From Chloropicon primus (Eukaryota): 64,000 nucleotides of DNA. Below, piece after piece: positions 6,201-53,753 of the stretch; positions within the stretch are counted from its first letter, which is position 1; each line of letters opens with the position of its first letter. A program made the translations under genes and the position numbers. The DNA lies in assembly GCA_023205875.1 (NCBI GenBank), contig CP060761.1, positions 62,001-126,000 of the forward strand. The letters are read 5' to 3'. Below the pieces are notes generated by a model, which was given only the letters and a program-made list of their open reading frames with translations, did not search any database and was not told the origin of the DNA.

Positions 6201-6663
6201 TCGTGACCTCGAGCTCCTTGGCGCCATCCACGTACAGGGTCACCTTCCTGTGGGACGGTTTGGTGCCGGCAGCATCCAGGTAAACGCCCCTGTCCTCCAC
6301 CGAGGTCGTGATCCCGACGTAGTGCCACTTCTTCCTGTCGTACGTCGTGCTCGTCTCCACCTTTCCCTTGGTGTCATCCCTAAAATAAAACCGTCCAGCG
6401 TTCCAACCTATCGTGGCCGAGTTCTCCTTGGTGCCGTCGGCGAAAGACACCAGGGCCTCCTCGTTGGCGTCCCCTTCCCTCTCCGGCCAGACCCACGCCG
6501 TCGTGGAGAACACTCCGGAGGACAACTCGGTCGTCTCGTCGGCCTCCACGACCGAGTTGATCCCGTTCAGCTTCACCACCGTCTCCCCCGCAACCGCCGT
6601 GGTGAGCAGCGCCACCAGGAGCAAGGAAGCCGCCGCAAGAGCCCTCACCCTGAACAAAGTCAT
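202..6663 (-). CDS. Large secreted multidomain protein: signal peptide, several LamG/concanavalin-like domains, IPT/TIG-like, filamin (Ig) repeats, DUF2341-like, C-terminal Kelch propeller
   Basis: Intronless ORF. First ATG is at 6663 (the ORF track starts at GTG 6669), followed by a hydrophobic leader (LAAASLLLVALLTTAVAG). LamG motifs: WHYVGIT..LYVDG..FSGQLDEVRVY and WTHLAVSYDGKKLVLYADG..GLMDELRFF. Filamin motifs: ATFTFQAKD..GGD..DNGDGTYSGSY. DUF2341-like: CSDLIF..VPFWV..TIWL..YMYYGN. Kelch: PREHHSMAL..IYVFGG and PRYGHAAA..MYVFGG. Confidence 0.85.
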   Translation of the reverse strand: MTLFRVRALAAASLLLVALLTTAVAGETVVKLNGINSVVEADETTELSSGVFSTTAWVWPEREGDANEEALVSFADGTKENSATIGWNAGRFYFRDDTKGKVETSTTYDRKKWHYVGITTSVEDRGVYLDAAGTKPSHRKVTLYVDGAKELEVTTVLPDLSSAVVTAGFEYRQHKKQKFFSGQLDEVRVYASELSAEQTRDLPFAKPPTGTKLYLNMDDIASLDLTSSTTTSNGVTYGHLEVVTVDYMPYDALTVASVAKVSPFSNSLYTDYQGPASGLTLTVTGTNFAETDFLKVTLDGVSVGYTYSSSAKLLVPLPSMLEDDLIFSQDELKKKVKVTNGGQNFKEFDFTLAYNIVEDLNANLEAHYNFDGHVKNVDKRRSENDATNANTYQGSATFTDDRNGKPTRALQFKYGQKLEVPVAVMGSTTGGSSTVCLWLYAEPGNHTLYTERGGASTEVYNELTVGSDGIIRFKGETGVDAESAGSPIIFDSWQFVCATRSSSSVALYLAGQKVATSAASQSTGQSLTALLASHLQGKLDDVWLWERALSSKEVNKLYDNQQYAVHLDGSHHFTLTDDAGESQFDSTSWHTNSEVTVEVWVKPDSTTGTSRVFYQPSKKTGATGDDALGFSVSVVDGRVEFRVMLDSDSTPGIFRSIATSDAVVETGKWQLVSVTYDQSSMMIAINGVAQRVGVSSLLSGSLTVNEPYSTKHTFLTIVTDPTSLDKQPIEASTKSIIVGESFKGYVGEVRMWNDDLTEAQVLSFYQCKPSVKSHANLYAYFPFDEGTGVKYSSGSAPLLVLAFSGTAEPLWVSSDHGKPASTIYWPHSPVSGSGTVSAKAGEVATFTFQAKDTCGNLLRKGGDPVQVVLAGPLDTHLNLFHGNTVDNGDGTYSGSYQADLCGFYALRVEDSSVPVTDGSVYTTHAAKLAKNTPIKVYVDSGVANASLSFVYDDNDLTPDTDDRSAAVAGANTKFFLQAIDEFGCIKKKGGDLFKVLLSGKYTQEGHVVDLGDGTYSLEYSPLVTGRSLLSVTLDDEHVGTNVMQGLQGKSVGWWTENNAGKDSKFGSYDGTSSPFCIDASFGSSLEFDGSSHVEVADSPAIDLSDKYTVDFFVKPTQSMLSAKLISKESPVSGRGYWVSLSGGLLSTGVYVGAEQYRYIETSYAPIVGAWTHLAVSYDGKKLVLYADGEVVGEQAYEEDRHARGNSQKLIIGNGLVGLMDELRFFGQALTKAEIASTMHCPSLSNSISAYYRMNDKVGDVVADLSSSMAHGTLKGAAWSTDEAPTNAGVLDLSASSFQGGGLSSAVVGENATITVTLVDKCGFPFNSVLTDDVVPPSLMDVAFAKISQGDKVAPVNNAKDLPHVSVSAQSDSCVGTNAFELQYKATSCGLLNLDMKIDNQPWGPYAVSFVSNHVTDPSKTEVSISSHVVSGVPFEIKLTTVDVHGCDRTTGGDTVHIALTRVSKPSKEGTLHGSDIVVSRLTVKDNGDGSYSAKATTPSPGAYHVDIGVNSVKVPSSPRLVTCDSPSLRKVLTQGPGELYNSMVASYKKDIYVVNGWGASKDFVESVWRYEPDLEENTWRYRSKLSFSSVPSHALSFTVDTKSLIGQGKMNADCSDLIFKSSSTSSNVPFWVDPLQGCDSDKTTIWLRPTEKECYMYYGNTHAKSSALSSAGSLMVVHDDFEGKGKTFADHGYTLTSPCGACFIPSDQDPAAFTVSTEVALSGKYSLKVNSLATAGGGIEKPLSSMATYLVKGYFYVSEAGSTTSAVNWFSPNYDPCTKVESTNMCSQGFIVGVNSQVSKTNYSSCYPWRATSVPQSPGWHSFEILDNGTVASFAIDGVHEPSLSRPSRPLDRVLLYTGGGSVGAWDSVIVAKYTPGIELTRGAEEDVIFNGKSFYEVSTRGTNPPSRRTRSYVMDGEKMYLIGGFGRYGASGSQGSYGAIGPHAAEDKVWSLNFNKMRWSSEVPYGSLRPTPREHHSMALHGKKIYVFGGKSGGELLSDLFVYDIDENAYATVKSTGPSPRYGHAAATFEDGMYVFGGYTDSGLSTEMWRFDYNSLEWANITPKSPPEFGPWNVSPCVYNASWYVKESTGKLFRYDFLYNQWVDLTISESSAGSGGENEEVHAGCAFAGGDLYLYGGRRSSSYSSDFFQVSL

Positions 6664-39379: not shown

Positions 39380-41026
39380 CTAGTCCCAAACGATGACGTC
39401 TCCCTTCTGATCCGCGCTCGCCAGCATGGCCGAGGAAGGGGACCAGGCGCAAGCCAGGACCCCGTTCTTGTGCTTCTTGAGCTCGTGCTCCAAGCCGCCA
39501 GTCCTCACGCTCCACATGTAGATGCTTCCGTTGTTCGAACCGCAAGCCACGGTCGAGTCGTCCGGACTGATGCAGGGGACCACCTTGTTGCCCCCGCACC
39601 TGAGCCCCGGATTCTCCAACACCTGGACGGTCTCAAAGTTGACCAAATCCACGACCTTGATCGTGTTGTCCTTCCCCGCGCTCACCAGGTACCTGTCGCT
39701 CATGGGGGACGTGACGACCGAGGAGACCTGAGACGTGTGAAGCTGAGAGAGTTGCTTCTCGAGGGAGCCCGTTCTGAAGTCCCACACCCGGACAGAGCCG
39801 TCAAAGTGGCCAGAATAGACGAAGGACCCGTTCTGGCTCATGGCCACGCTGAAGCAGGTGCTCCCGCACGCGATGTTCTGGACGCAGTAGCCCTTGTTGA
39901 GGTCCCAAATCCTTATGGTTCGGTCCTGCCCACCCGAGACGCACTTCTTGCTCTCGCTGGACGCAAAGGACACCGAGTGCACCTTGTCCCTGTGGCCCGT
40001 CAGGGTGTGCTTGCACCTGCCCGACTCGACGCTCCACATCCTCAGGGCCCCGTCCGCTCCTGCCGCTACAACAAAGTTGTCGTCCGGAGTGAACTTCACG
40101 TCCAAAATGCTACCCAGCGCTCCCCGCAGAGTCGAGGAACAGCTCCCCTTCTTCGGCTCCCAGAGCTTCACGATCTGGTCCGCCCCACCCGTCGCGAGAA
40201 GGGTCCCCTTGTTGCTGAAGCAAGCCGCGTGGACAAACCCCTCGTGGGTGTCCGAGAGGACGTGCTTCACGGACTTGGGGAGGTAACCTCCCCCGAACTC
40301 CGCCGCGTCGAGGCCCTCCCAGTCCCCTCCCAGTCCCCCTCCCTGGGCCCCTTGGCTCATCTTTCTCATGGCCTGCAGGTTCGCGTTGGACACCACGTTG
40401 TCGTAGTAGTCGTTCGCGGCGTTCATCCTCTCCGCCTCCTTCTCCTTCATCTCCAAGAGCATGTCCACGAGCTTGCGGTTCTCCACCTTGACGTCGCCAA
40501 TCTGCTTCTCCAACCCTTGCTTCTCCTCGGATATCGTGTCAAGCTCCACGTGGAGCACCCTGCAGTTGTTCTTCTCGTCCTCCAGCTGCTGCAGCAGCTC
40601 CTTGTTCCTGGCTCCCAGCTCGCTTATCGTCAAGTGAAGCTTCTCGTTCTCGGTCGTGCTCTTGTCGAACTCCTCCCGCAGCACCGTGATTTCGGACACC
40701 TTGGCCGCGAGCTCCTGGGCTATCCGCGCGTTCTCCTTGTAGCTCTGCATGACCTCCTCCCCGAGCTCCGCGTTCCTCGTCGTCAGCTGCTCCGCCAGGG
40801 CGGCCTTGCCCTCGTTGTCATCCTTGTCGAGAAGCTCCCTCTTGAGCGTGTCCTTCTCCTCCGCGAGAGCCTTCGTCCTCTTGTCGAACGCGGAAACCTC
40901 CCTCCGGAGCCTCGCCTTCTCCTGCAAAACAACCAGGTACGACTCCACCACCGGGCGAAGCGCGTCCACCTCCAAGGCGTTCCGCTTCTTCAGCCCCGAC
41001 AGCAACAACGTCTCCAACTCCGTCAT
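39380..41026 (-). CDS. ATG16: Autophagy protein ATG16 (coiled coil plus 7 WD40 repeats)
   Basis: N-terminal LKKRN helix, coiled coil ending ENRKLVDMLLEMKEKEAERMNAAN, and WD40 repeats including LTGHRDKV..DRTIRIWDL and SGHFDGSVRVWD. Confidence 0.9.
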   Translation of the reverse strand: MTELETLLLSGLKKRNALEVDALRPVVESYLVVLQEKARLRREVSAFDKRTKALAEEKDTLKRELLDKDDNEGKAALAEQLTTRNAELGEEVMQSYKENARIAQELAAKVSEITVLREEFDKSTTENEKLHLTISELGARNKELLQQLEDEKNNCRVLHVELDTISEEKQGLEKQIGDVKVENRKLVDMLLEMKEKEAERMNAANDYYDNVVSNANLQAMRKMSQGAQGGGLGGDWEGLDAAEFGGGYLPKSVKHVLSDTHEGFVHAACFSNKGTLLATGGADQIVKLWEPKKGSCSSTLRGALGSILDVKFTPDDNFVVAAGADGALRMWSVESGRCKHTLTGHRDKVHSVSFASSESKKCVSGGQDRTIRIWDLNKGYCVQNIACGSTCFSVAMSQNGSFVYSGHFDGSVRVWDFRTGSLEKQLSQLHTSQVSSVVTSPMSDRYLVSAGKDNTIKVVDLVNFETVQVLENPGLRCGGNKVVPCISPDDSTVACGSNNGSIYMWSVRTGGLEHELKKHKNGVLACAWSPSSAMLASADQKGDVIVWD

Positions 41027-41652
41027 CCCTCCCCTCCTCCCTGTGTCTCTTCCTCCTCACCACTGCGCCGTTCTTTTTCGAAAGCTGGAGGCTTCTCTTC
41101 TCTCCTCCCGCCCTTCTCTGGCGGGAAAAAAAAAGGGAAGGAAGGGGAAGGAAGGGTGTGCGGTGCATCGGACTTGAATCGGTTCAGTCCACTCCACTCC
41201 ACGTCACTGGGGGAGAATCTGTTCGTGATCGGCTCGGCTCTCGAGGAGCGAACGAACGAGCATACACAAAACAAAACAAAGCAAAATTATAATCAAGTAT
41301 TAAATATTTAATATATTTTTCTTCCCATGGGGACAGTTCTCTCCTTCCCCCACACGCACTGCTTGCTGTCCTCCCACTCAGTAAAAGATCGTGAGGACCC
41401 TGTGGTGGGGATCGGAGACGTCTCTCCTCTTCTCTCCCTCCTTCCTGAGGAACCAGTCCAGCTCGATGCTCATCGGGACCACACTCGCAGTCCTTGAAGG
41501 TCCTCCACTCCCAACGTCGATCGTCGTTTCCATTGACCAAAGCACTCATCTTTCTCGAACCCAGGACAGGAGGAGGTTCCCTCCCTATCCTCGTCTCTCT
41601 CCTTGCCCAACTCCCGTCCCTGTCTCTCCTCCCGAGGCCTCTCCTCTCCTCT

Positions 41653-41776
41653 CCTCTCCTCTGCCCGGGCGTTAACTCTCGGATTGCCAAGATTTTTCGA
41701 GGAGAATTCCCGAGTGCTGTGGTTAATTCCGTGGCTAATGGATAAGCCGAGAGTTAACGCCCGGGCAGAGGAGAGG
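41653..41776. repeat. 30-bp perfect inverted repeat with a 64-bp spacer (MITE-like or hairpin)
   Basis: 41653-41682 cctctcctctgcccgggcgttaactctcgg is the exact reverse complement of 41747-41776. Confidence 0.9.
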
Positions 41777-42047
41777 GGAGGAGGGCGACCACCAGAGGGA
41801 GAGGGAGGGGACGAGGGGACGAGAACGCGTCCACGACAACGCAACGAAACGACACGACGCGCAGGAAGGGAACCCCTCCGTCGAAAGCGCTTTTCTCTTC
41901 GTGAAGGGAAACGGAACGGAACGGAGAGGAGGGAGGGAGAGAGGGAAAGGCGGCGGGGACGAAGAGAGAAGCGACGTGAGCAGAAGGCGCTCGGTGGTTG
42001 ACCGCTGCGGAGCCGAACAACAACAACAACAACTGAAAAAATAAAAA

Positions 42048-45000
42048 ATGAAAAAGAACGTCGAGTGGTTGTGCGTTTGGCTGGCCGTGGTGGTGGTGGT
42101 GGCCGCCGCCACGCCTGTGTACGGCCAGAGGTGGGGGAGGCCCCACAGCTACGGAAGGTCCAAGGCGAGCACCGTTGGGAGCAGCGGTATTGGCATCGCG
42201 AGCGAAACAAGCAAGGCGGAAGTCGACGGCAGCGGCACCTTCATGGCCTCCGCTGAGGCCGACGCCGGAGACACCAAAGCAAAGGTCATGGCGATGACCA
42301 CCGATGGCGCTGCTCAAGGCAGCAGCACCGCCTCCATGAGTGGTGCGGGTGAGATGGTCATGACCGAGGTTTCTGGTGACGGAATGTTGACGGGCGAAGC
42401 AAAAGGTTCGTCGTCCACCGCAAGTGCTACGGCTGACGGCGGGGACGACAATGACCTCCGCGCTTCGGCTGTCGGCTCGGGGAACACCGTCTCTACTGTT
42501 GTTGAGGATGCTGACATGAATCACGTTGAAGCCGTGGCTCATGGTGACGGCAATACAGTGACTGCAACTGCTGAGTTTGGTGCTGAAATGAATCGTGTTG
42601 GTGCCGCGGCTCGCGGTGATCGCAATGAAGTGGAGGCTTTTGCTGGGTTTACTGCTGACATGAATCGTGTTGGTGCCGTGGCTCGTGGTGATGACAACAC
42701 AGTGATGGCTTCAGCTTCTGAGACTGCTACCATGAATCGTGTTGGTGCCGCGGCTCGCGGTGAGAACAACACAGTGATTGCTGGTGCTGTTGAGGATGCG
42801 GAGGACAATCGTGTTGGTGCCGTGGCTCGTGGTGATCGCAATGAAGTGGAGGCTTCTGCTGAGGCTGGTGTTGGCATGAATCGTGTTGGTGCCGTGGCTC
42901 GCGGTGATGACAATATGGTGATGGCTGTTGCTGAGGGTGCTGACATGAATCGTGTTGATGCCGTCGCTCGTGGTGATGACAATATGGTGATGGCTGTTGC
43001 TGAATTTGCTGACATGAATCGTGTTGATGCCGTCGCTCGTGGTGATGACAATATGGTGATGGCTGTTGCTGAATTTGCTGACATGAATCGTGTTGGTGCC
43101 GCGGCTCGTGGTGACAACAATACAGTGGAGGCTTTTGCTGAGTTTGCTGACATGAATCGTGTTGATGCCGTGGCTCGTGGTGATGACAACACAGTGATTG
43201 CTGAGGCTGTTGAGGATGCGGACGACAATCGTGTTGGTGCCGTGGCTCGTGGTGAGAACAACACAGTGATTGCTGGTGCTGAAGGTGCTGACATGAATCG
43301 TGTTGGTGCCGTGGCTCGTGGTGATGACAACACAGTGAATGCTGGTGCTTTTGAGGATGCGGACGACAATCGTGTTGATGCCGTGGCTCGTGGTGATGAC
43401 AACACAGTGATTGCTGAGGCTTCTGAGGGTGCGGACGACAATCGTGTTGGTGCCGCGGCTCGTGGTGATGACAACACAGTGATTGCTGAGGCTTCTGCTG
43501 AATTTGCTGACATGAATCGTGTTGGTGCCGTGGCTCGTGGTGATGACAACACAGTGACTGCAACTGCTGAATTTGCTGACATGAATCGTGTTGGTGCCGT
43601 GGCTCGTGGTGATGACAACACAGTGAATGCTGGTGCTCAATTTGCTGACATGAATCGTGTTGATGCCGTCGCTCGTGGTGATGACAATATGGTGATGGCT
43701 GTTGCTGAATTTGCTGACATGAATCGTGTTGGTGCCGCGGCTCGTGGTGACAACAATACAGTGGAGGCTTTTGCTGAGTTTGCTGACATGAATCGTGTTG
43801 ATGCCGTGGCTCGTGGTGATGACAACACAGTGATTGCTGAGGCTGTTGAGGATGCGGACGACAATCGTGTTGGTGCCGTGGCTCGTGGTGAGAACAACAC
43901 AGTGATTGCTGGTGCTGAAGGTGCTGACATGAATCGTGTTGGTGCCGTGGCTCGTGGTGATGACAACACAGTGAATGCTGGTGCTTTTGAGGATGCGGAC
44001 GACAATCGTGTTGGTGCCGTGGCTCGTGGTGAGAACAACACAGTGATTGCTGGTGCTGAAGGTGAAGCTGACATGAATCGTGTTGGTGCCGTGGCTCGTG
44101 GTGATGGCAATGAAGTGGAGGCTTTTGCTGAGTCTGGTGCTGACATGAATCGTGTTGATGCCGTGGCTCGTGGTGAGGGCAACACAGTGGAGGCTGAAGC
44201 TCTATGGGATGCTACCATGAATGATGTTGATGCCGTGGCTCGTGGTGATGACAATATGGTGATGGCTGTTGCTGAATTTGCTGACATGAATCGTGTTGAT
44301 GCCGTCGCTCGTGGTGATGACAATATGGTGATGGCTGTTGCTGAATTTGCTGACATGAATCGTGTTGATGCCGTCGCTCGTGGTGATGACAATATGGTGA
44401 TGGCTGTTGCTGAATTTGCTGACATGAATCGTGTTGATGCCGTCGCTCGTGGTGATGACAATATGGTGATGGCTGTTGCTGAAGGTGCTGACATGAATCG
44501 TGTTGGTGCCGCGGCTCGTGGCGATCGCAATGAAGTGGAGGCTTTTGCTGAGTCTGGTGCTGAAATGAATCGTGTTGATGCCGTGGCTCGTGGTGATGAC
44601 AACACAGTGATTGCTGAGGCTTTTGAGGGTGCGGACGACAATCGTGTTGGTGCCGTGGCTCGTGGTGATGACAATACAGTGACTGCAACTGCTGAGTTTC
44701 GTGCTAACATGAATCGTGTTGGTGCCGTGGCTCGTGGTGATGACAACACAGTGAATGCTGGTGCTCAATCTGCTGACATGAATCGCGTTGATGCCGTGGC
44801 TCGTGGTGAGAACAACACAGTTGTTGCTGGTGCTGTTGTAGATTCCTTTGGCAATCGTGTTGGTGCCGCGGCTCGCGGTGATGACAATATGGTGATGGCT
44901 TTGGCTATTGAGGGTGCGGACGACAATCGTGTTGGTGCCGTGGCTCGCGGTGATGACAATATGGTGATGGCTTTGGCTGTTGACGATGCGGACGACAATC

Positions 45001-46892
45001 GTGTTGGTGCCGTGGCTCGTGGTGATGACAACACAGTGAATGCTGGTGCTCAATTTGCTGACATGAATCGTGTTGGTGCCGTGGCTCGTGGTGATGGCAA
45101 CACAGTGAATGCAACTGCTGAGCCTGGTGCTGACATGAATCGTGTTGGTGCCGTGGCTCGTGGTGATGACAACACAGTGATTGCTGAGGCTATTGAGGAT
45201 GCGGACGACAATCGTGTTGGTGCCGCGGCTCGTGGTGATCGCAATGAAGTGGAGGCTTTTGCTGAGTTTGGTGCTGACATGAATCGCGTTGATGCCGTGG
45301 CTCGTGGTGAGAACAACACAGTGATTGCTGGTGCTGTTGTAGATTCCTTTGGCAATCGTGTTGGTGCCGCGGCTCGCGGTGATGACAACACAGTGAATGC
45401 TGGTGCTATTGAGGGTGCGGACGACAATCGCGTTGATGCCGTGGCTCGTGGTGATGACAACACAGTGATTGCTTTTGCTGTTGACGATGCGGACGACAAT
45501 CGTGTTGGTGCCGTGGCTCGTGGTGATGACAACACAGTGATTGCTGAGGCTGAAGGTGAAGCTGACATGAATCGTGTTGGTGCCGCGGCTCGTGGTGATC
45601 GCAATGAAGTGGAGGCTTTTGCTGAGTCTGGTGCTGACATGAATCGTGTTGATGCCGTGGCTCGTGGTGATGACAATATGGTGATGGCTGATGCTCAGGG
45701 TGCGGACGACAATCGTGTTGGTGCCGTGGCTCGTGGTGAGAACAACACAGTGATTGCTGGTGCTGAAGGTGCTGACATGAATCGTGTTGGTGCCGTGGCT
45801 CGTGGTGATGGCAATGAAGTGGAGGCTTTTGCTGAGTCTGGTGCTGACATGAATCGTGTTGATGCCGTGGCTCGTGGTGAGGGCAACACAGTGGAGGCTG
45901 AAGCTCTATGGGATGCTACCATGAATGATGTTGATGCCGTGGCTCGTGGTGATGACAATATGGTGATGGCTGTTGCTGAATTTGCTGACATGAATCGTGT
46001 TGATGCCGTCGCTCGTGGTGATGACAATATGGTGATGGCTGTTGCTGAATTTGCTGACATGAATCGTGTTGATGCCGTCGCTCGTGGTGATGACAATATG
46101 GTGATGGCTGTTGCTGAATTTGCTGACATGAATCGTGTTGATGCCGTCGCTCGTGGTGATGACAATATGGTGATGGCTGTTGCTGAAGGTGCTGACATGA
46201 ATCGTGTTGGTGCCGCGGCTCGTGGCGATCGCAATGAAGTGGAGGCTTTTGCTGAGTTTGGTGCTGAAATGAATCGTGTTGATGCCGTGGCTCGTGGTGA
46301 TGACAACACAGTGATTGCTGAGGCTTTTGAGGATGCGGACGACAATCGTGTTGGTGCCGTGGCTCGTGGTGATGACAACACAGTGATTGCTGAGGCTTCT
46401 GAGGGTGCGGACGACAATCGCGTTGATGCCGTGGCTCGTGGTGATCGCAATGAAGTGGAGGCTATTGCTGAGTTTGGTGCTGACATGAATCGCGTTGATG
46501 CCGTGGCTCGTGGAGACCGCAACGACGTGACCGTCAAGGCCAAGAAATCTGATCGCAACAGGCTCAGCGCCATGGCTCGCGGAAACCGCAACAACGTGAC
46601 CGTCAAGGCCAAGAAATCTGATCGCAACAGGCTCCGCGCCATGGCTCGCGGAAACCGCAACGACGTGACCGTCAAGGCCAAGAAATCTGATCGCAACAGG
46701 CTCAGCGCCATGGCTCGCGGAAACCGCAACGACGTGACCGTCAAGGCCAAGAAATCTGATCGCAACAGGCTCCGCGCCTTGGCTCGCGGAAACCGCAACG
46801 ACGTGACCGTCAAGGCCAAGAAAGCGGAAGGCGTGGTCAGGCCGGTCCTTGTTCGTGGTAATGGCAGGTCGAAGACAGTTAACGTGCCTTAA
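42048..46892 (+). CDS. Secreted RGD-repeat protein (long paralog, 1614 aa), predicted beta-solenoid
   Basis: Signal peptide MKKNVEWLCVWLAVVVVVAAATPVYG. About 60 repeats of 23-24 aa (e.g. ADMNRVDAVARGDDNMVMAVAEF, 69/72 bp), then basic C-terminal repeats RGNRNDVTVKAKKSDRNRLSAMA. No TM anchor. Confidence 0.85.
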   Translation: MKKNVEWLCVWLAVVVVVAAATPVYGQRWGRPHSYGRSKASTVGSSGIGIASETSKAEVDGSGTFMASAEADAGDTKAKVMAMTTDGAAQGSSTASMSGAGEMVMTEVSGDGMLTGEAKGSSSTASATADGGDDNDLRASAVGSGNTVSTVVEDADMNHVEAVAHGDGNTVTATAEFGAEMNRVGAAARGDRNEVEAFAGFTADMNRVGAVARGDDNTVMASASETATMNRVGAAARGENNTVIAGAVEDAEDNRVGAVARGDRNEVEASAEAGVGMNRVGAVARGDDNMVMAVAEGADMNRVDAVARGDDNMVMAVAEFADMNRVDAVARGDDNMVMAVAEFADMNRVGAAARGDNNTVEAFAEFADMNRVDAVARGDDNTVIAEAVEDADDNRVGAVARGENNTVIAGAEGADMNRVGAVARGDDNTVNAGAFEDADDNRVDAVARGDDNTVIAEASEGADDNRVGAAARGDDNTVIAEASAEFADMNRVGAVARGDDNTVTATAEFADMNRVGAVARGDDNTVNAGAQFADMNRVDAVARGDDNMVMAVAEFADMNRVGAAARGDNNTVEAFAEFADMNRVDAVARGDDNTVIAEAVEDADDNRVGAVARGENNTVIAGAEGADMNRVGAVARGDDNTVNAGAFEDADDNRVGAVARGENNTVIAGAEGEADMNRVGAVARGDGNEVEAFAESGADMNRVDAVARGEGNTVEAEALWDATMNDVDAVARGDDNMVMAVAEFADMNRVDAVARGDDNMVMAVAEFADMNRVDAVARGDDNMVMAVAEFADMNRVDAVARGDDNMVMAVAEGADMNRVGAAARGDRNEVEAFAESGAEMNRVDAVARGDDNTVIAEAFEGADDNRVGAVARGDDNTVTATAEFRANMNRVGAVARGDDNTVNAGAQSADMNRVDAVARGENNTVVAGAVVDSFGNRVGAAARGDDNMVMALAIEGADDNRVGAVARGDDNMVMALAVDDADDNRVGAVARGDDNTVNAGAQFADMNRVGAVARGDGNTVNATAEPGADMNRVGAVARGDDNTVIAEAIEDADDNRVGAAARGDRNEVEAFAEFGADMNRVDAVARGENNTVIAGAVVDSFGNRVGAAARGDDNTVNAGAIEGADDNRVDAVARGDDNTVIAFAVDDADDNRVGAVARGDDNTVIAEAEGEADMNRVGAAARGDRNEVEAFAESGADMNRVDAVARGDDNMVMADAQGADDNRVGAVARGENNTVIAGAEGADMNRVGAVARGDGNEVEAFAESGADMNRVDAVARGEGNTVEAEALWDATMNDVDAVARGDDNMVMAVAEFADMNRVDAVARGDDNMVMAVAEFADMNRVDAVARGDDNMVMAVAEFADMNRVDAVARGDDNMVMAVAEGADMNRVGAAARGDRNEVEAFAEFGAEMNRVDAVARGDDNTVIAEAFEDADDNRVGAVARGDDNTVIAEASEGADDNRVDAVARGDRNEVEAIAEFGADMNRVDAVARGDRNDVTVKAKKSDRNRLSAMARGNRNNVTVKAKKSDRNRLRAMARGNRNDVTVKAKKSDRNRLSAMARGNRNDVTVKAKKSDRNRLRALARGNRNDVTVKAKKAEGVVRPVLVRGNGRSKTVNVP

Positions 46893-47614
46893 TTCAAAGA
46901 AACCGTGGATCAAGTGTTTGGGGTTTTAGCAACGACCACTGGTCCTGCTTCGAGCCTCCCAAGATTCCTCCTTTGTTCCTTTTCAAGATCTAAAAGTACA
47001 CAAACAATCATGCATGTTATTCCCTCTTTCAGCTCTTGCCGGATCTTTCGAAACCGGGGCAGGAATCTCCTCAACAGGACAGGACAGGAGGTTCCCTCCT
47101 TGTCCTCGTCTCTCTCTCTCCTTGGCCAACTCCCGTCCCCATCTACGATGCTGGTGGTGGTCTTGGTCCTCCTCCCATCGCGGAAGCTGGTCTGTCGTCA
47201 TCGAGCTCTCGAGGAGCGAACGAACGAGCAAACACAAAACAAAACAAAACAAAATTATAATCAAGTATTAAATATTTAATATATTTTTCTTCCCTGGACA
47301 GTCCTCTCCTTCTCCCACACGCACTGCTTGCTGTCCTCCCACTCAGTAAAAGATCGTGAGGACACTGTGGTGGGGATCGGAGACGTCTCTCCTCTTCTCT
47401 CCCTCCTTCCTGAGGAACCAGTCCAGCTCGATGCTCATCGGGACCACACTCGCAGTCCTTGAAGGTCCTCCACTCCCAACGTCGATCGTCGTTTCCATTG
47501 ACCAAAGCACTCATCTTTCTCGAACCCAGGACAGGAGGAGGTTCCCTCCCTATCCTCGTCTCTCTCCTTGCCCAACTCCCGTCCCCGTCTCTCCCGAGGC
47601 CTCTCCTCTCCTCT

Positions 47615-47738
47615 CCTCTCCTCTGCCCGGGCGTTAACTCTCGGATTGCCAAGATTTTTCGAGGAGAATTCCCGAGTGCTGTGGTTAATTCCGTTGCTAA
47701 TGGATGAGCCGAGAGTTAACGCCCGGGCAGAGGAGAGG
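47615..47738. repeat. Second copy of the 30-bp perfect inverted repeat
   Basis: Arms at 47615-47644 and 47709-47738 are identical to copy 1. The spacer differs by a couple of substitutions. Confidence 0.9.
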
Positions 47739-48010
47739 GGAGGAGGGCGACCACCAGAGGGAGAGGGAGGGGACGAGGGGACGAGAACGCGTCCACGACA
47801 ACGCAACGAAACGACACGACGCGCAGGAAGGGAACCCCTCCGTCGAAAGCGCTTTTCTCTTCGTGAAGGGAAACGGAACGGAACGGAGAGGAGGGAGGGA
47901 GGGAAAGGCGGCGAGGACGAAGAAAAGAAGCGACGTGAGCAGAAGGCGCTCGGTGGTTGACCGCTGCGGAGCCGAACAACAACAACAACAACTGGGAAAA
48001 AAAAGAAAAA

Positions 48011-49660
48011 ATGAAAAAGAACGTCGAGTGGTTGTGCGTTTGGCTGGCCGTGGTGGTGGTGGTGGCCGCCGCCACGCCTGTGTACGGCCAGAGGTGGGGG
48101 AGGCCCCACAGCTACGGAAGGTCCAAGGCGAGCACCGTTGGGAGCAGCGGTATTGGCATCGCGAGCGAAACAAGCAAGGCGGAAGTCGACGGCAGCGGCA
48201 CCTTCATGGCCTCCGCTGAGGCCGACGCCGGAGACACCAAAGCAAAGGTCATGGCGATGACCACCGATGGCGCTGCTCAAGGCAGCAGCACCGCCTCCAT
48301 GAGTGGTGCGGGTGAGATGGTCATGACCGAGGTTTCTGGTGACGGAATGTTGACGGGCGAAGCAAAAGGTTCGTCGTCCACCGCAAGTGCTACGGCTGAC
48401 GGCGGGGACGACAATGACCTCCGCGCTTCGGCTGTCGGCTCGGGGAACACCGTCTCTACTGTTGTTGAGGATGCTGACATGAATCACGTTGAAGCCGTGG
48501 CTCATGGTGACGGCAATACAGTGACTGCAACTGCTGAGTTTGGTGCTGAAATGAATCGTGTTGGTGCCGCGGCTCGCGGTGATCGCAATGAAGTGGAGGC
48601 TTTTGCTGGGTTTACTGCTGACATGAATCGTGTTGGTGCCGTGGCTCATGGTGACGGCAATACAGTGATTGCTTTTGCTGTTGACGATGCGGAGGACAAT
48701 CGTGTTGGTGCCGTGGCTCGTGGTGATCGCAATGAAGTGGAGGCTTCTGCTGAGGCTGGTGTTGGCATGAATCGTGTTGGTGCCGTGGCTCGCGGTGATG
48801 ACAATATGGTGATGGCTGTTGCTGAGGGTGCTGACATGAATCGTGTTGATGCCGTCGCTCGTGGTGATGACAATATGGTGATGGCTGTTGCTGAATTTGC
48901 TGACATGAATCGTGTTGATGCCGTCGCTCGTGGTGATGACAATATGGTGATGGCTGTTGCTGAATTTGCTGACATGAATCGTGTTGATGCCGTCGCTCGT
49001 GGTGATGACAATATGGTGATGGCTGTTGCTGAATTTGCTGACATGAATCGTGTTGGTGCCGCGGCTCGTGGTGACAACAATACAGTGGAGGCTTTTGCTG
49101 AGTTTGCTTACATGAATCGTGTTGATGCCGTGGCTCGTGGTGATGACAACACAGTGATTGCTGAGGCTTCTGAGGATGCGGACGACAATCGTGTTGATGC
49201 CGTGGCTCGCGGAAACCGCAACGACGTGACCGTCAAGGCCAAGAAATCTGATCGCAACAGGCTCAGCGCCATGGCTCGCGGAAACCGCAACGACGTGACC
49301 GTCAAGGCCAAGAAATCTGATCGCAACAGGCTCCGCGCCTTGGCTCGCGGAAACCGCAACAACGTGACCGTCGAGACCGAGGAATCTGATCGCAACAGGC
49401 TCAGCGCCATGGCTCGCGGAAACCGCAACGACGTGACCGTCGAGACCGAGGAATCTGATCGCAACAGGCTCCGCGCCATGGCTCGCGGAAACCGCAACGA
49501 CGTGACCGTCAAGGCCAAGAAATCTGATCGCAACAGGCTCCGCGCCTTGGCTCGCGGAAACCGCAACGACGTGACCGTCAAGGCCAAGAAAGCGGAAGGC
49601 GTGGTCAGGCCGGTCCTTGTTCGTGGTAATGGCAGGTCGAAGACAGTTAACGTGCCTTAA
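48011..49660 (+). CDS. Secreted RGD-repeat protein (short paralog, 549 aa)
   Basis: ATG at 48011. Signal peptide, N-terminus and C-terminus are identical to 42048-46892. About 10 acidic repeats and 6 cap-type repeats. Confidence 0.85.
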   Translation: MKKNVEWLCVWLAVVVVVAAATPVYGQRWGRPHSYGRSKASTVGSSGIGIASETSKAEVDGSGTFMASAEADAGDTKAKVMAMTTDGAAQGSSTASMSGAGEMVMTEVSGDGMLTGEAKGSSSTASATADGGDDNDLRASAVGSGNTVSTVVEDADMNHVEAVAHGDGNTVTATAEFGAEMNRVGAAARGDRNEVEAFAGFTADMNRVGAVAHGDGNTVIAFAVDDAEDNRVGAVARGDRNEVEASAEAGVGMNRVGAVARGDDNMVMAVAEGADMNRVDAVARGDDNMVMAVAEFADMNRVDAVARGDDNMVMAVAEFADMNRVDAVARGDDNMVMAVAEFADMNRVGAAARGDNNTVEAFAEFAYMNRVDAVARGDDNTVIAEASEDADDNRVDAVARGNRNDVTVKAKKSDRNRLSAMARGNRNDVTVKAKKSDRNRLRALARGNRNNVTVETEESDRNRLSAMARGNRNDVTVETEESDRNRLRAMARGNRNDVTVKAKKSDRNRLRALARGNRNDVTVKAKKAEGVVRPVLVRGNGRSKTVNVP

Positions 49661-50021: not shown

Positions 50022-53000
50022 ATGATGAACACAACGACGGGGGAAGAGAAGGAAGACCTCGAGCAGGCCGTGGAAGAAGGTGTAATGGAGGATCACGACG
50101 GGTCCTCCCTCGCTTTAAGCGATGTGGATAGCGAGCCAGAGCTCTTGCACGCGCTCGAGCCCATGGATGTTGTCCCGGGTAACGGAGGCCTCGTGGCCAA
50201 GTTTGCAGCGAGGCACACGAAGACAGAGAGCCAGGCTTCGCTGAACGCTTGGCTCGGTGCCGAGGACGAGGCCGAGGAGGGAGAGAGCGTGCAGGCTCAG
50301 GATGTCGGGAAGGAGGGGGAGGGCAGAGAGAGTTCGAGCTCTCTGGCTGCCTCTCCGAGCGGGGAGTATGACGGATGGGTGCTCAAGCTGTGTGGCCTCA
50401 TCGACAGCCTCAAGACGACTCTTGGGAGGGAGGAGTGCGTTGGGCTGCAGAGGCACCAAGGGGAGTACCTCCTGCAGCAGGGTCAGGATCTGCTTGCGGA
50501 GAGGAGGGCCCAGGCTGCCATGCAACACGTCACTTCCTCGACTGCGCCCTCTACTCCGTCACCAACCCGGTCGAGGTCGAGGTCGAGGTCGAGGAGGGAG
50601 CCCTTGGAGGTTGAGAGTGTGGAGGCCTTCATGAAGAGGGCGAAGGAGGCTGTGAACAACCTGCTGGCGTCTGGCGTGGATCAAAACGCGGATGAAAGGG
50701 GTTTCGGTGGAATCAAAGTCGTGTATGATTCAGAGAACGTGACGAAAGTAACGAGTCTGGTGGAGTCCTTCTTGTCCAGAGGCCTGAGGTCCCAGCCTTT
50801 GCATCCACTGGAGCAGGGAATGGAGGTCGTGGATTCGTCCAAGAATGGGGACAGGTCAGAAACCCGGGTGTCTCCGAGGAAAAAGGGGGGGACATGGATC
50901 AAAGGCTTGAGGTGGATGGTTAGCAAACCTCAGCCCTTCAATGTTCTGTATGCAGCGGAGGGCCACGGGATCGACTTGGGCCTGAAAGTGATCACTCCAA
51001 GGCAAAACAGGAACGCCAAGGGGCTGAACAAGCTCCATGCGTGGATGAGGAATTCTTTGGTGGAGGGCTCTCTTGCCTCCAGATTAGACGATCTCTTGCA
51101 GCAGCATTCCTTCCTTAAGATATGGTACGATGACGGCTCTTTCATGCGTTCGGAGGACACTTCCTCTTTCTTTGTGGGACTCCTCAAGCCCCTAAGTGAA
51201 TTGCAGTTCAACATCTTGCTGTGGCCAGCGCAGGATTTCCGGTCAGAGCCTCCAAAGACTCAAGCATATTTCTCCGCCGGCAGGCTTGCGAGAGAGAAGA
51301 AGAATGAGATGGATGCATTTGCCAAGGCGGTGGAGCAGTTTCAAGCCCAGGAGAGGCTCGTTACTGTCATCGGTGAGCACTCGCCTCAGCTGCACGACAT
51401 TGATGAGATTTTAAATTCTCCCAGACAGAAGGGAAAGGGCAAGAAACAATCGAAGAAGGGAAAAAAAAGGTTGGTGGACGCTGCGGAGATTGGCAGAGAA
51501 AAGCTAGAAAGGTCCACGCCTTCACAATCAGACCAAACATTCTCTTTCGACCACTCCTTCTCGTTTACTGAGCTGGTGCCTCCTCCTATCAAGGTTGGAT
51601 TTGAGGTGCCTCCAGTTGACACGAGTAATGGCGCAGCAGACCCTGCAAGCCCATTGCAACAGGAGGCAGTGAACAGTGTGAGCTCACTCAGCAGGGATAT
51701 TGCGGGCAGGATGCATTTTGAGGAAGAGTTGGATTCAGTTAGGGACAAACATGCGCAGGAAGATTCAGAAAAGTCCATCCCGCCAGCAATGGAAAGGAGC
51801 GAGGCCTTCCTGAAGAAGACTGAAGCTGACACAAATAAGATTCTGGAGAGCTTGGAAAGCCACGTGGCCACTTCCCTGGAGAATAACGCAAACGCTTTCT
51901 TGCTGAACAATTACGAGGTGACTGATCCTGATCGGGGTGATGAGGAGCAAAAGGTGATTGAGGAGATAAGCCTGATGGTCGGCTTGGAAGAGAGGATAAG
52001 TGCTTTGAGGGAGGACCCAGATCCGGAGAAGGAAACCGCAGAGTTTCTACGGCGGCACAAGAGTGAATCAGCAGAACATGCCGTGCCAGCTTCCGACAAG
52101 TTTGCGCACAGCGACTTTGGTACCAACAGTCTTCTCGACCATTGTGCTGAGGTTGAGGGTGACATCTCTTTGGATTTGCCTGACGTTCCAACCACGTCTC
52201 TGATTCCTCCGAAGGCAACAACAGAAGGAGCGAAGGGGACAGGTGGCGATGACCATCATTTGCCGTTGGATTTGCCTAACGTTCCAACCACGTCTCTGAT
52301 TCCTCCGAAGGCAACAACAGAAGGAGCAAAGGGGACAGGTGGCGATGACCATCATTTGCCTTTGGATTTGCCTGACGTTCCAACCACGTCTCTGATTCCT
52401 CCGAAGGCAACAACAGAAGCCGCCGATCACGTGGAGGGGGGCGAGGATGACCGCACCTTAGAGCGAGATGACCTGCCTCACCGCTTTTTGCAGCGCATTG
52501 AAGGTCTTGAAAACCCAACACCACCGCCAATCCTCCCGGGTAAATGCGATGGGGAACAGGCAAGGAGTGGTTTGGAGAAAACGATTTCTGATTTGAACAC
52601 GATAAACGACTTGAAGAGCATTCTCACCGATTCGGAGGAACCCTCCCCCAGCCATCGGAAGAATGAATCCTCTGTCGGCATTCTCAATGTTGGAATCATG
52701 GGCATAGAGACTCATGGTGACAAGTGGAGCTCCTACACGGTGTACCAGGTGTATGTCCAGAGCGGGAGCGGCCCCTCCTGGCTCCTGAGAAAGAGGTACA
52801 GCGACTTTGTTCAACTTCACAAAGAGCTCAAGGTCCTCTTTGGTAGTCTTCCAAAGCCCTGGGAGGAGATCAAGCTGGACAAATTTCTTAATTTTGGCCA
52901 CTTGCGATTCAACGCCTCGGTCATCGAGGAGAGGAGGGAGTTGCTCCAGGAGTGCTTGCGGGTGGCTGCAAGCTCGGCGCCACCACTATGCACCTCGGAA

Positions 53001-53753
53001 CCCCTTCTCCGGTTCCTCTCTCCCGAGGAGGGGGAACACGGGATATTAGAGCAGATAGGCTTTAACGGGTCCAACCAGGAGGACCTGAAGATGACCTACG
53101 ATGAGCCCCGCGGCACTGGGCAGTCCGTGCGGCTTGTTGTGGAGGAGCCCTTTGGGAAGGCAGTCCTGGAACAGCTCCAGGTGCAACATGGCCGTTGCTG
53201 CGGGTGTTCGGTGAGGATAAGGGGGAGCACCTGGACGATACCCTCTTCCTTCATCCCCCTCCCCTTTGCCAGCAACAAAGGCTTTGCCCTGTGTGAGTAC
53301 ACCAAGCAGCTCTACTGCACGTCCTGCCACACCAACCAGAAGATGATCCTCCCGTGGGCTGTTTTGCAGGATTGGGATTTCAGGCCAAGGAAGGTCTCCG
53401 GCGTTGCTTATGAGTATCTTTCTTCCATCTTTGAGCAACCCATCCTGTGCGTTTCTGCCATCAGGCCACAGCTCTTTCAGAGGATTTCGCTGTTGGACAC
53501 TGTTCGATTGAGGAGGATCAACCTCCACAAGCGATTTCTGCAGCTCCAGGGGACGGACTTTGAGAAGCCTCTGCTAAATGCGCTTGGGTCAAGGAGCTAC
53601 TTGCTGGAGAACGTGGAGTTCTGGTCCCTCAGAGATCTCATGGATCTCTCCAAGGGCGCCTTCGCGGAGCTCCCAGGGCTTTTGGACAACTTTGAGGCAA
53701 AACTGCAGCAAGCGACGTGGGACTCGCTGAAGAGCAACTTGGCAATGAGCTAA
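50022..53753 (+). CDS. RUN + PX + Rubicon-homology (zf-RING_9/DUF4206) protein, PLEKHM/Rubicon-like
   Basis: RUN: LVESFLSRGLR..AWMRNSL..WYDDGSFM..LKPLSELQFN. PX: YTVYQVYV..WLLRKRYSDFVQLHKEL..IEERRELLQECL..FL. Rubicon homology: Q..RCCGC..CEYTKQLYCTSCH..ILPWAVLQDWDFRPRKVS..WSLRDL. TGTAA at 53771-53775. Confidence 0.85.
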   Translation: MMNTTTGEEKEDLEQAVEEGVMEDHDGSSLALSDVDSEPELLHALEPMDVVPGNGGLVAKFAARHTKTESQASLNAWLGAEDEAEEGESVQAQDVGKEGEGRESSSSLAASPSGEYDGWVLKLCGLIDSLKTTLGREECVGLQRHQGEYLLQQGQDLLAERRAQAAMQHVTSSTAPSTPSPTRSRSRSRSRREPLEVESVEAFMKRAKEAVNNLLASGVDQNADERGFGGIKVVYDSENVTKVTSLVESFLSRGLRSQPLHPLEQGMEVVDSSKNGDRSETRVSPRKKGGTWIKGLRWMVSKPQPFNVLYAAEGHGIDLGLKVITPRQNRNAKGLNKLHAWMRNSLVEGSLASRLDDLLQQHSFLKIWYDDGSFMRSEDTSSFFVGLLKPLSELQFNILLWPAQDFRSEPPKTQAYFSAGRLAREKKNEMDAFAKAVEQFQAQERLVTVIGEHSPQLHDIDEILNSPRQKGKGKKQSKKGKKRLVDAAEIGREKLERSTPSQSDQTFSFDHSFSFTELVPPPIKVGFEVPPVDTSNGAADPASPLQQEAVNSVSSLSRDIAGRMHFEEELDSVRDKHAQEDSEKSIPPAMERSEAFLKKTEADTNKILESLESHVATSLENNANAFLLNNYEVTDPDRGDEEQKVIEEISLMVGLEERISALREDPDPEKETAEFLRRHKSESAEHAVPASDKFAHSDFGTNSLLDHCAEVEGDISLDLPDVPTTSLIPPKATTEGAKGTGGDDHHLPLDLPNVPTTSLIPPKATTEGAKGTGGDDHHLPLDLPDVPTTSLIPPKATTEAADHVEGGEDDRTLERDDLPHRFLQRIEGLENPTPPPILPGKCDGEQARSGLEKTISDLNTINDLKSILTDSEEPSPSHRKNESSVGILNVGIMGIETHGDKWSSYTVYQVYVQSGSGPSWLLRKRYSDFVQLHKELKVLFGSLPKPWEEIKLDKFLNFGHLRFNASVIEERRELLQECLRVAASSAPPLCTSEPLLRFLSPEEGEHGILEQIGFNGSNQEDLKMTYDEPRGTGQSVRLVVEEPFGKAVLEQLQVQHGRCCGCSVRIRGSTWTIPSSFIPLPFASNKGFALCEYTKQLYCTSCHTNQKMILPWAVLQDWDFRPRKVSGVAYEYLSSIFEQPILCVSAIRPQLFQRISLLDTVRLRRINLHKRFLQLQGTDFEKPLLNALGSRSYLLENVEFWSLRDLMDLSKGAFAELPGLLDNFEAKLQQATWDSLKSNLAMS
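52170..52418 (+). repeat. 96-bp coding tandem repeat (~2.6 copies) in the RUN-PX-RH gene
   Basis: Units start at 52170, 52266 and 52362 and encode LDLP(D/N)VPTTSLIPPKATTEGAKGTGGDDHHLP. Confidence 0.9.

What the first reader, a model, noticed from the sequence alone, without database searches (positions are those of the whole stretch)
42048..46892. Secreted curlin-like beta-solenoid displaying dozens of RGD motifs, with an acidic body and basic cap
Seen: about 60 repeats, each with two half-units N-x-V-x-A-x-A (NRVDAVARGDD / NMVMAVAEFADM). Residues alternate hydrophobic and polar, Asn is invariant, and RGD (sometimes RGE) sits at the same turn. The mature chain has no Cys. The last ~5 repeats become strongly basic. 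Known: bacterial curlin repeats are ~22-23 aa of the form N-x-A-x-x-x-Q-x-G-x-x-N and build functional amyloid; RGD is the integrin ligand. Inference: a eukaryotic functional-amyloid or fibril protein with an aligned RGD ladder and charge polarity favouring self-assembly or ion binding. RGD may be only a structural turn here.
Basis: partly seen in the sequence, partly recalled or inferred. Interest (0 to 1): 0.85.

Follow-up and report, generated by a model that had tools for sequence, protein, structure and literature searches.

The report
Glutamine-free curli-like rods in picoalga
A tiny marine green alga carries two side-by-side genes for long repeat proteins, likely secreted, whose predicted shape is closest to the bacterial biofilm fibre protein curli but which lack curli's glutamine ladder; they likely form fibres or a coat outside the cell, and their many RGD triplets are likely structural turns, not integrin ligands.

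Summary
ORF 42048-46892 encodes 1614 aa with 61 repeats of 23-25 aa (47 RGD, 9 RGE), an acidic body (-160) and a basic end (+29).

The repeat sits in the curlin register N-x-h-x-h-x-Q-X-G-X-X, but Ala replaces both Gln columns. Inward codons never change amino acid, while the outward codons between them vary freely, which indicates a real protein under solenoid constraint. AlphaFold gives a two-strand-per-repeat solenoid (pLDDT 92.5). Its best match among 48,161 PDB chains is curli CsgA 8C50 (Z 22.2, next 14.5; rmsd 8.0).

RGD is the curlin X-G-X turn; bacterial curlin hits carry RGD or RGN there too. One annotated copy is Chloropicon primus; its published orthogroup has 7 hypothetical genes and is species-specific.

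Not a curlin family member: no Gln ladder, no Pfam hit, no csg genes among the window's scanned ORFs. Best reading: a secreted curli-like rod that self-assembles electrostatically outside the cell. Secretion, expression, fibre formation and bacterial origin are all untested.

The parts
42048..46892 (+). Copy 1: single-exon ORF, 1614 aa, curlin-register beta-solenoid protein (P0001)
42048..42125 (+). Likely signal peptide, aa 1-26 (basic start, hydrophobic core; cleavage after VYG is inferred, no predictor was run)
   Evidence: Only strongly hydrophobic stretch: Kyte-Doolittle 11-mer 3.29 against at most 1.67 beyond aa 40; no TM or C-terminal anchor. Helix 6-17 in the paralogue's model.
42126..42449 (+). 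Ser/Gly/Ala/Thr-rich leader with degenerate strands, aa 27-134; low confidence up to about aa 90
42450..46487 (+). Acidic solenoid body: one degenerate repeat plus 56 repeats N-R-V-[GD]-A-[VA]-A-R-G-[DE]-x-N-x-V-x-A-x-A-xxxx(x); Arg ladders on face 1, variable face 2
46488..46832 (+). Five basic cap repeats (+3 to +6 per full repeat), host-like codon use, 48% nt different from body repeats
46833..46892 (+). Degenerate Pro-containing C-terminal tail (possible end cap; pLDDT about 60) and stop
48011..49660 (+). Copy 2: tandem paralogue, 549 aa, 10 acidic and 6 cap-type repeats (P0002)
41215..42047 (+). Upstream region duplicated with the gene (second copy 47183-48010)
41646..41783 (.). 40-nt inverted repeat (95% complementary, 58-nt spacer) about 265 bp upstream of the ATG; second copy near 47608-47745
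   Evidence: (z -10.2)

Best explanation
These are two tandem genes for likely secreted repeat proteins predicted to fold as long two-sided curli-type beta-solenoid rods, with Ala in place of curli's Gln ladders, that likely self-assemble through charge into fibres or a coat outside the algal cell. Shown by sequence: the repeat register, Asn/Val/Ala inward columns that never change amino acid, an Arg-rich face, an acidic and hypervariable opposite face, acidic arcs, a basic C-terminal cap, and recent expansion and duplication. Predicted: each 23-25 aa repeat is one strand-arc-strand coil, giving a rod of about 29 nm for copy 1 and about 8 nm for copy 2 (0.48 nm per coil, recalled value). Inferred: ER secretion through the signal peptide, with no anchor. 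RGD is the X-G-X turn of arc 1.
For: Register: curlin is N-$-h-$-h-$-Q-X-G-X-X-N-$-h-$-h-$-Q, repeat 23 +/- 5 aa, 4-62 repeats (PMC10192328). The algal protein matches it 62 times with Ala at position 7 (62 of 62) and 18 (61 of 62). Selection on the fold, among 35 distinct acidic repeats of both copies: inward pN 0.000 / pS 0.116, face-2 outward pN 0.564 / pS 0.341. First and second codon positions vary at 0 of 16 inward and 13 of 16 outward sites (Fisher p 3e-6, sites treated as independent). AlphaFold: pLDDT 77.8 from one sequence and 92.5, pTM 0.89, for the C-terminal 228 aa with a self-alignment. Best of 48,161 PDB representatives: CsgA 8C50, Z 22.2, rmsd 8.0, 214 aligned, 17% identity; next Z 14.5. 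The top two BFVD hits are 'Curlin associated' phage proteins (TM 0.59 and 0.55, E 6e-4 and 2e-3). 3 of the 17 representative hits other than P0003 pass the Pfam Curlin_rpt cutoff, including the best, P0004, at E 9e-8. For these three and the curlin-like P0015, reversed and shuffled controls score at most 2.7 bits against 35-48. Charge per body repeat: face 1 +1.46, face 2 -1.16, arcs -1.48 and -1.68. Precedent for acidic coils plus C-terminal Arg coils driving solenoid fibres: PMC10727499.
Against: Nothing here shows secretion, translation or polymerisation. Most beta-solenoids do not polymerise, because their ends are capped or imperfect (PMC10192328 Discussion). This protein has a degenerate leader and a Pro-containing tail that may be such caps. 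The Gln ladder, described as a major stabiliser of curli sheets, is absent. The rmsd to 8C50 is 8.0 A; the other good matches are known (recalled) right-handed helices, so the model is probably of the opposite hand. AlphaFold makes the same error for CsgA with sparse alignments, so handedness is open. Foldseek found no PDB match at E <= 0.001 for either model. Unrelated repeats score as high against the repeat profile as curlins do (DUF346-type 52.6 and ankyrin 47.9 bits, against 29-46), so homology is not proven. Chloropicon walls are described as thin, layered and smooth; fibrils are reported for the sister genus Chloroparvula (PMC5656628). The family is listed as specific to C. primus, which fits an accessory role better than a core wall component.
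Confidence: 0.5

Rival explanations
1. A capped, non-polymerising solenoid rod that acts as a variable binding surface (adhesin, self-recognition protein, or decoy for viruses or grazers), held on the anionic wall by its basic cap.
For: Face-2 positions 13, 15, 17 and 19 take 3-9 amino acids each, with at least 24 non-synonymous against 6 synonymous changes, and are 40% hydrophobic. Repeat number differs between paralogues, 61 against 16. The family is multicopy and species-specific. Most solenoids are monomer scaffolds.
Against: 24:6 changes on 9:3 sites is only slightly above neutral, and curli's outward residues also vary freely. No ligand or anchor was identified.
Confidence: 0.25
2. A polyanionic scaffold for Ca2+/Mg2+ or mineral binding, with Asp ladders at the arcs spaced one coil apart.
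For: Mature pI 4.3; body charge -160; about 3 net negative charges per repeat at the arcs.
Against: Solved CsgA 8C50 also has acidic D-G-x-x-N arcs. The passages read on this class describe no mineralised covering. The Arg ladders could neutralise the arcs internally.
Confidence: 0.1
3. An ice-binding or ice-nucleating protein.
For: The layout of acidic coils plus C-terminal basic coils, and the 61-65 coil count, resemble bacterial INPs (for the layout, listing for 65 coils). Weak Pfam LbR_Ice_bind match (best E 0.013, 4 of 20 overlapping segments). Antifreeze protein 3P4G scores Z 13.4.
Against: Thr/Ser-x-Thr/Ser occurs in only 3 of 61 repeats at each face-2 pair and in 0 on face 1. The faces carry bulky, charged, variable residues. 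The repeat is 23-25 aa, not 16. Z 13.4 is in the background range.
Confidence: 0.05
4. A multivalent RGD ligand for integrins or integrin-like receptors of grazers or hosts.
For: 47 RGD motifs at one turn. R8 and D10 show pN below pS (0.054/0.304 and 0.095/0.408), so they are under some constraint. RGE does not abolish binding for all integrins (PMC7644020, search listing only).
Against: The same arc reads RGD or RGN in bacterial curlin hits (FRGDRN, VRGDFN, VRGNRN). RGD is replaced in 14 of 61 repeats and 8 of 16 in the paralogue. It lies at a strand end and in a 4-residue stacked arc, whereas integrin ligands present RGD on a protruding loop (recalled). Several synonymous sites are also fixed, so the count reflects recent DNA copying.
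Confidence: 0.05
5. An unstable coding minisatellite with no function.
For: Exact block duplications of 487 and 375 nt. Body GC3 is 0.37 against 0.64-0.88 in seven other genes of the window. One annotated copy, P0003, ends after 96 aa, as a frameshift would give.
Against: All 60 repeat intervals keep the frame; there are no stops in 1614 codons; conservation alternates codon by codon with the predicted inside/outside pattern.
Confidence: 0.05

Closest known systems
Bacterial curli subunit CsgA/CsgB (Pfam PF07012), centrosymmetric class, e.g. Pontibacter R15.5, PDB 8C50
   Same: 23-residue strand-arc-strand repeat; Asn at 1 and 12; inward residues at 3, 5, 7, 14, 16, 18; X-G-X-X arc 1; near-identical inward residues in both half-repeats; repeat count at the top of the bacterial range of 4-62; best structural match.
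   Different: Ala replaces both Gln ladders (6 Gln in 1614 aa, no QX10Q). No Pfam hit. Eukaryotic gene flanked by ATG16-like and RUN/PX/Rubicon-homology genes, not csg genes. Arg face and basic cap. Ends possibly capped. Handedness open.
Bacterial ice-nucleation proteins (InaZ/PbINP) with WO-coils and R-coils
   Same: Long solenoid of about 60-65 coils, acidic body of variable length, C-terminal basic coils proposed to drive electrostatic fibre assembly.
   Different: 16-aa coils with TxT/SxT and Tyr ladders; here 23-25 aa and almost no TxT. No sequence match. 5-6 cap coils against 10-12.
Grass ice-binding beta-roll (Pfam PF21300 LbR_Ice_bind)
   Same: Plant two-sided beta-roll; its N-x-V-x-G repeat with inner Asn/Val ladders is recalled, not from a call. 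Weak Pfam match, best E 0.013.
   Different: Shorter coils and flat Thr/Ser faces (recalled); the match is not significant.
Mortierellaceae fungal INPs (PMC12978214, abstract only)
   Same: Precedent for a bacterial self-assembling beta-solenoid acquired by a eukaryote and working without the bacterial membrane.
   Different: InaZ orthologues with shown activity; here neither origin nor activity is shown.

Membership tests
Curlin CsgA/CsgB (PF07012) | Gln at positions 7 and 18 (QX10Q kernel) | tested here: not met
   Ala in 62 of 62 at position 7; Ala 61, Val 1 at position 18; 0 QX10Q
Curlin CsgA/CsgB (PF07012) | Asn at positions 1 and 12, hydrophobic inward residues at 3, 5, 14, 16 | tested here: met
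   N 61 of 61 at both positions; V/L, A, V, A/V
Curlin CsgA/CsgB (PF07012) | X-G-X-X arc 1 and repeat length 23 +/- 5 | tested here: met
   G9 in 61 of 61; repeats of 23-25 aa
Curlin CsgA/CsgB (PF07012) | Pfam Curlin_rpt score above the gathering cutoff | tested here: not met
   No Curlin_rpt hit at E <= 1 for either protein
Curlin CsgA/CsgB (PF07012) | Two-sided beta-solenoid, one repeat per coil | tested here: met
   By prediction only; top VIA match 8C50, Z 22.2, rmsd 8.0, 214 aligned
Curlin CsgA/CsgB (PF07012) | Left-handed, untwisted solenoid | tested here: inconclusive
Curlin CsgA/CsgB (PF07012) | csg operon and CsgG secretion channel | tested here: not met
   Window only: the neighbours scanned are eukaryotic ATG16/WD40, WW, RUN-PX-RH, AAR2 and others; the whole genome is not held
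Curlin CsgA/CsgB (PF07012) | Open ends and polymerisation into cross-beta amyloid fibres | not testable with these tools
Bacterial ice-nucleation protein | 16-residue coils with TxT/SxT water-organising motifs | tested here: not met
   23-25 aa coils; T/S-x-T/S in 3 of 61 at each face-2 pair, 0 on face 1
Bacterial ice-nucleation protein | Acidic coils followed by C-terminal basic coils | tested here: met
   -160 body, +29 cap and tail; cf.
RGD integrin ligand | RGD kept specifically, beyond what the repeat fold explains | tested here: inconclusive
   47 of 61 and 8 of 16; RGE, RGN and HGD substitutions; some constraint on R8 and D10; same arc in bacterial curlins
RGD integrin ligand | Binding to an integrin | not testable with these tools
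   Needs a binding assay

The most novel reading that the evidence does not exclude
A eukaryote has its own curli: a bacterial or phage curlin gene taken up by Chloropicon primus, rebuilt with an all-Ala core in place of the Gln ladder, expanded into a family of about seven genes, secreted without the Csg machinery, and assembled into functional amyloid-like fibres by an ice-nucleator-style charge clamp.
Probability: 0.25. Interest if true: 0.85.

Novelty: new variant of a known kind. Interest (0 to 1): 0.6.

Why it matters
Curli are described as a Gram-negative bacterial system that depends on a Gln/Asn zipper and the CsgG channel. A eukaryotic, Gln-free version would show that the curlin coil can be stabilised by an Ala/Val core alone and exported by another route. 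It would also give a named gene for extracellular protein fibres in green algae, where amyloid-like adhesive is reported for Prasiola (review passage). It offers a first handle on the surface of an abundant oceanic picoalga, and a very regular, Cys-free, two-faced protein rod for materials work. If it proves monomeric, it is still an uncharacterised species-specific repeat family with a clean inside/outside selection signal.

Tried and rejected
Family and sequence searches
- Pfam and NCBIfam: nothing significant for either protein.
- PDB by sequence: 0 hits for P0002. The repeat profile hit only Photorhabdus lectins, through the shared ARG-x-DN word; rejected as repeat noise.
- Homologue searches at near, longer and shorter lengths returned only P0003. 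About 8000 candidates were scored each time, so this is weak evidence of absence.
- Of the 17 other representative hits, 3 are Pfam curlins and 1 (P0015) is curlin-like by eye. The other 13 are unrelated repeats (WD40, ankyrin, DUF346, mucin-like and others) and were set aside.
- The A2 profile hit on 8C50 (E 1e-11) is driven by its three bacterial rows. It shows those are curlin relatives, not that the algal protein is.
- ESM Atlas: best score 0.78, no usable lead.
- Pattern scans of metagenome, viral and prokaryote genome contigs: no relative confirmed among 363, 35 and 60 pattern matches.

Structure
- Foldseek against PDB: no match at E <= 0.001. E. coli CsgA and the grass beta-roll were not among the 50 VIA rows shown, which excludes nothing.
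- The wide VIA search of the 549-aa model never ran, so the N-terminal leader has no fold comparison.

Expression
- No RNA holder was listed.
- Two runs only guessed to be RNA were laid. Short contigs cover 42807-42925, 46642-46740, 48045-48233, 48439-48727, 49115-49232 (X1) and 42997-43095 (X2). Of the five pieces checked, four match both copies, and any may come from other paralogues. This shows presence, not transcription; whether the runs are RNA remains open.

Other
- No whole genome is held, so the other family members could not be read.
- Rfam: 0 hits in the window.
- Earlier scan findings: none.

Full report
Observation. The ORF at 42048-46892 (+) is open for 1614 aa. After a hydrophobic N-terminus and a Ser/Gly/Ala-rich leader come 61 repeats of 23-25 aa, all 60 intervals in frame. 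N1, A5, A7, G9, N12, V14 and A18 are invariant. Positions 8-10 read RGD in 47, RGE in 9, RGN in 4 and HGD in 1 of 61; shuffles give 1.85 RGD on average, at most 7 in 2000. The single Cys is in the signal peptide. The body (aa 158-1480) has charge -160 and the last 134 aa +29.

Surroundings. A second copy follows at 48011-49660: 549 aa, 16 repeats, 8 RGD, first 630 nt identical. About 830 bp of upstream DNA was duplicated with it (807 of 821 aligned bases), including a 40-nt inverted repeat. 10 of its 16 repeats are identical in DNA to repeats of copy 1. Copy 1 holds exact block duplications of 487 and 375 nt, so the array is young and still changing length. Neighbours are an ATG16/WD40 gene and a RUN-PX-Rubicon-homology gene. 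The one strong hit among 1.84 billion representatives, P0003, is identical over aa 1-95 and is named by its source as Chloropicon primus hypothetical protein A3770_13p69490. It ends in Pro-stop, which is what the +1 frame of the window's gene reads there, so that copy looks frameshifted or mis-assembled. Supplementary file S1 of PMC12301720 places it in OG0000223: seven hypothetical genes on chromosomes 3, 8, 10 and 13, listed as specific to C. primus. OG0000274 has seven genes on the same chromosomes in a second strain. I have not seen the other sequences; that they share the repeats, and that the two orthogroups are one family, is inferred.

Is it a real protein? Among 35 distinct acidic repeats of both copies, the eight inward codons show no amino-acid change (pN 0.000, pS 0.116), while the outward codons of strand 2 between them show pN 0.564, pS 0.341. 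First and second codon positions vary at 0 of 16 inward and 13 of 16 outward sites. Codon-by-codon alternation is hard to get from DNA slippage alone and matches a beta-strand inside/outside pattern. Against over-reading: several synonymous sites are also fixed, so much of the uniformity is recent copying. Expression is not shown (see Tried and rejected).

Fold. AlphaFold gives two strands per repeat from one sequence (pLDDT 77.8; residues 1-79 and 85-90 below 50). For the last 228 aa with a 20-row self-alignment it gives pLDDT 92.5, pTM 0.89. Foldseek found nothing in PDB at E <= 0.001. The wide VIA search ranked curli CsgA 8C50 first of 48,161 (Z 22.2, rmsd 8.0, 214 aligned, 17% identity), well above the next row (Z 14.5). 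The two best viral-model hits are 'Curlin associated' phage proteins. The high rmsd, with good fits to helices recalled as right-handed, suggests the model has the opposite hand to curli. Sleutel et al. report the same flip for CsgA with sparse alignments, so handedness is undecided.

Relation to curlin. The curlin kernel is N-$-h-$-h-$-Q-X-G-X-X-N-$-h-$-h-$-Q, 23 +/- 5 aa, 4-62 repeats (PMC10192328). The algal repeat fits this register 62 times, but with Ala at position 7 in 62 of 62 and at 18 in 61 of 62, and has no QX10Q. Pfam Curlin_rpt is not hit. Of the 17 other representative hits, three pass the Curlin_rpt cutoff, including the best (E 9e-8), and one more looks curlin-like. Reversed and shuffled controls score near zero, and the match is best over the basic cap. 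However, unrelated repeats score as high against the repeat profile, so common descent is plausible but unproven. Verdict: it is built like a centrosymmetric curlin, but it is not a member by the family's defining Gln ladder.

RGD. It occupies X-G-X of arc 1. The bacterial curlin hits read FRGDRN, VRGDFN, VRGNRN and QRGNKN at that arc. It is substituted in 14 of 61 and 8 of 16 repeats. R8 and D10 are modestly constrained, which an Arg ladder and acidic arc would explain. RGE is the usual inactive control but is reported to keep alpha-v binding (PMC2064432 and PMC7644020, search listings only), so RGE alone does not settle the matter. An integrin role is unlikely but untested.

Mechanism. Per body repeat, face 1 carries +1.46 (R2 and R8 ladders), face 2 -1.16 (40% hydrophobic, highly variable), and the arcs -1.48 and -1.68; in the cap all four are positive. 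The protein has one hydrophobic segment, at the N-terminus, and no anchor, so export is inferred. A long acidic solenoid of variable length with a short block of basic C-terminal coils is the layout of bacterial ice-nucleation proteins, where the basic coils are needed for activity and are proposed to clamp rods into fibres (PMC10727499). The ice-ordering TxT motifs are missing here. I therefore favour an extracellular structural rod that assembles electrostatically (0.5). A capped monomeric binding rod with a variable face is the main rival (0.25): most solenoids do not polymerise, charged ends can simply stabilise a solenoid (PMC13288671, abstract), and Chloropicon walls are described as smooth. 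Dimer modelling was not available.

Novelty. 'Curli' does not occur in the main text of either Chloropicon genome paper or in the 2025 paper's supplement. Library searches listed no paper on a curlin-like protein in green algae; I judged these from titles and abstract starts, searches showed only 20 of 24 and 20 of 285 papers, and the library lacks most subscription papers. Eight of 20 supplementary files of PMC6731263 were not searched. I rate it a new variant of a known kind, interest 0.6.

Papers seen. PMC10192328: passages and sections 6 and 13. PMC10727499, PMC5656628, PMC6628237: passages. PMC12301720: passages, a supplement search and parts 1-2 of 24 of the supplement. PMC6731263: passages and a supplement search. 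PMC12978214 and PMC13288671: abstracts. PMC7644020, PMC2064432 and PMC9418140: search listings. Recalled, from no call: 0.48 nm rise per coil, the handedness of SufB and pectate-lyase-type helices, the grass beta-roll motif, and the loop presentation of RGD in integrin ligands.

Noticed in passing
window 12849-37673 (-): Single 8274-aa ORF with signal peptide, 9% Cys, 119 CxGxW motifs, TSP1_spondin similarity (E 4e-37 over aa 1-4224, 126.8 bits against a cutoff of 41, though no single stretch passed alone), kilobase internal duplications and one hydrophobic segment near aa 7963: a giant, likely membrane-anchored surface protein.
   Followed up: partly
window 41646-41783 and about 47608-47745: 40-nt inverted repeat, 95% complementary, -54 kcal/mol as DNA, z -10.2, upstream of both genes; no Rfam match. 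Could be a small mobile element or a regulatory hairpin.
   Followed up: partly
window 42519-46487: Body repeats have GC3 0.37 while the leader and cap have 0.78 and 0.73. Third-position T is 0.86 before G and 0.56 otherwise; a CpG-biased C-to-T drift is possible, but the counts descend from few ancestral units.
   Followed up: partly
window 48493-48638: A contig of run X1 skips 144 nt, two repeats in frame; the full joined form is not in the window, so it may be another paralogue, an allele or a repeat artefact.
   Followed up: partly
window 202-6663 (-): 2153-aa protein with a likely signal peptide and LamG, filamin, DUF2341 and Kelch domains; another large surface-type protein nearby.
   Followed up: no
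window 39380-41026 (-) and 50022-53753 (+): The gene pair sits between two autophagy-type genes, ATG16 with WD40 and RUN-PX-Rubicon homology; probably coincidence.
   Followed up: no
window 49325-49531 (+), cap repeats 3-4 of copy 2: Two of the six cap-type repeats of copy 2 have switched the basic KAKK stretch to acidic ETEE, weakening the cap locally (charges +1 and -1).
   Followed up: no
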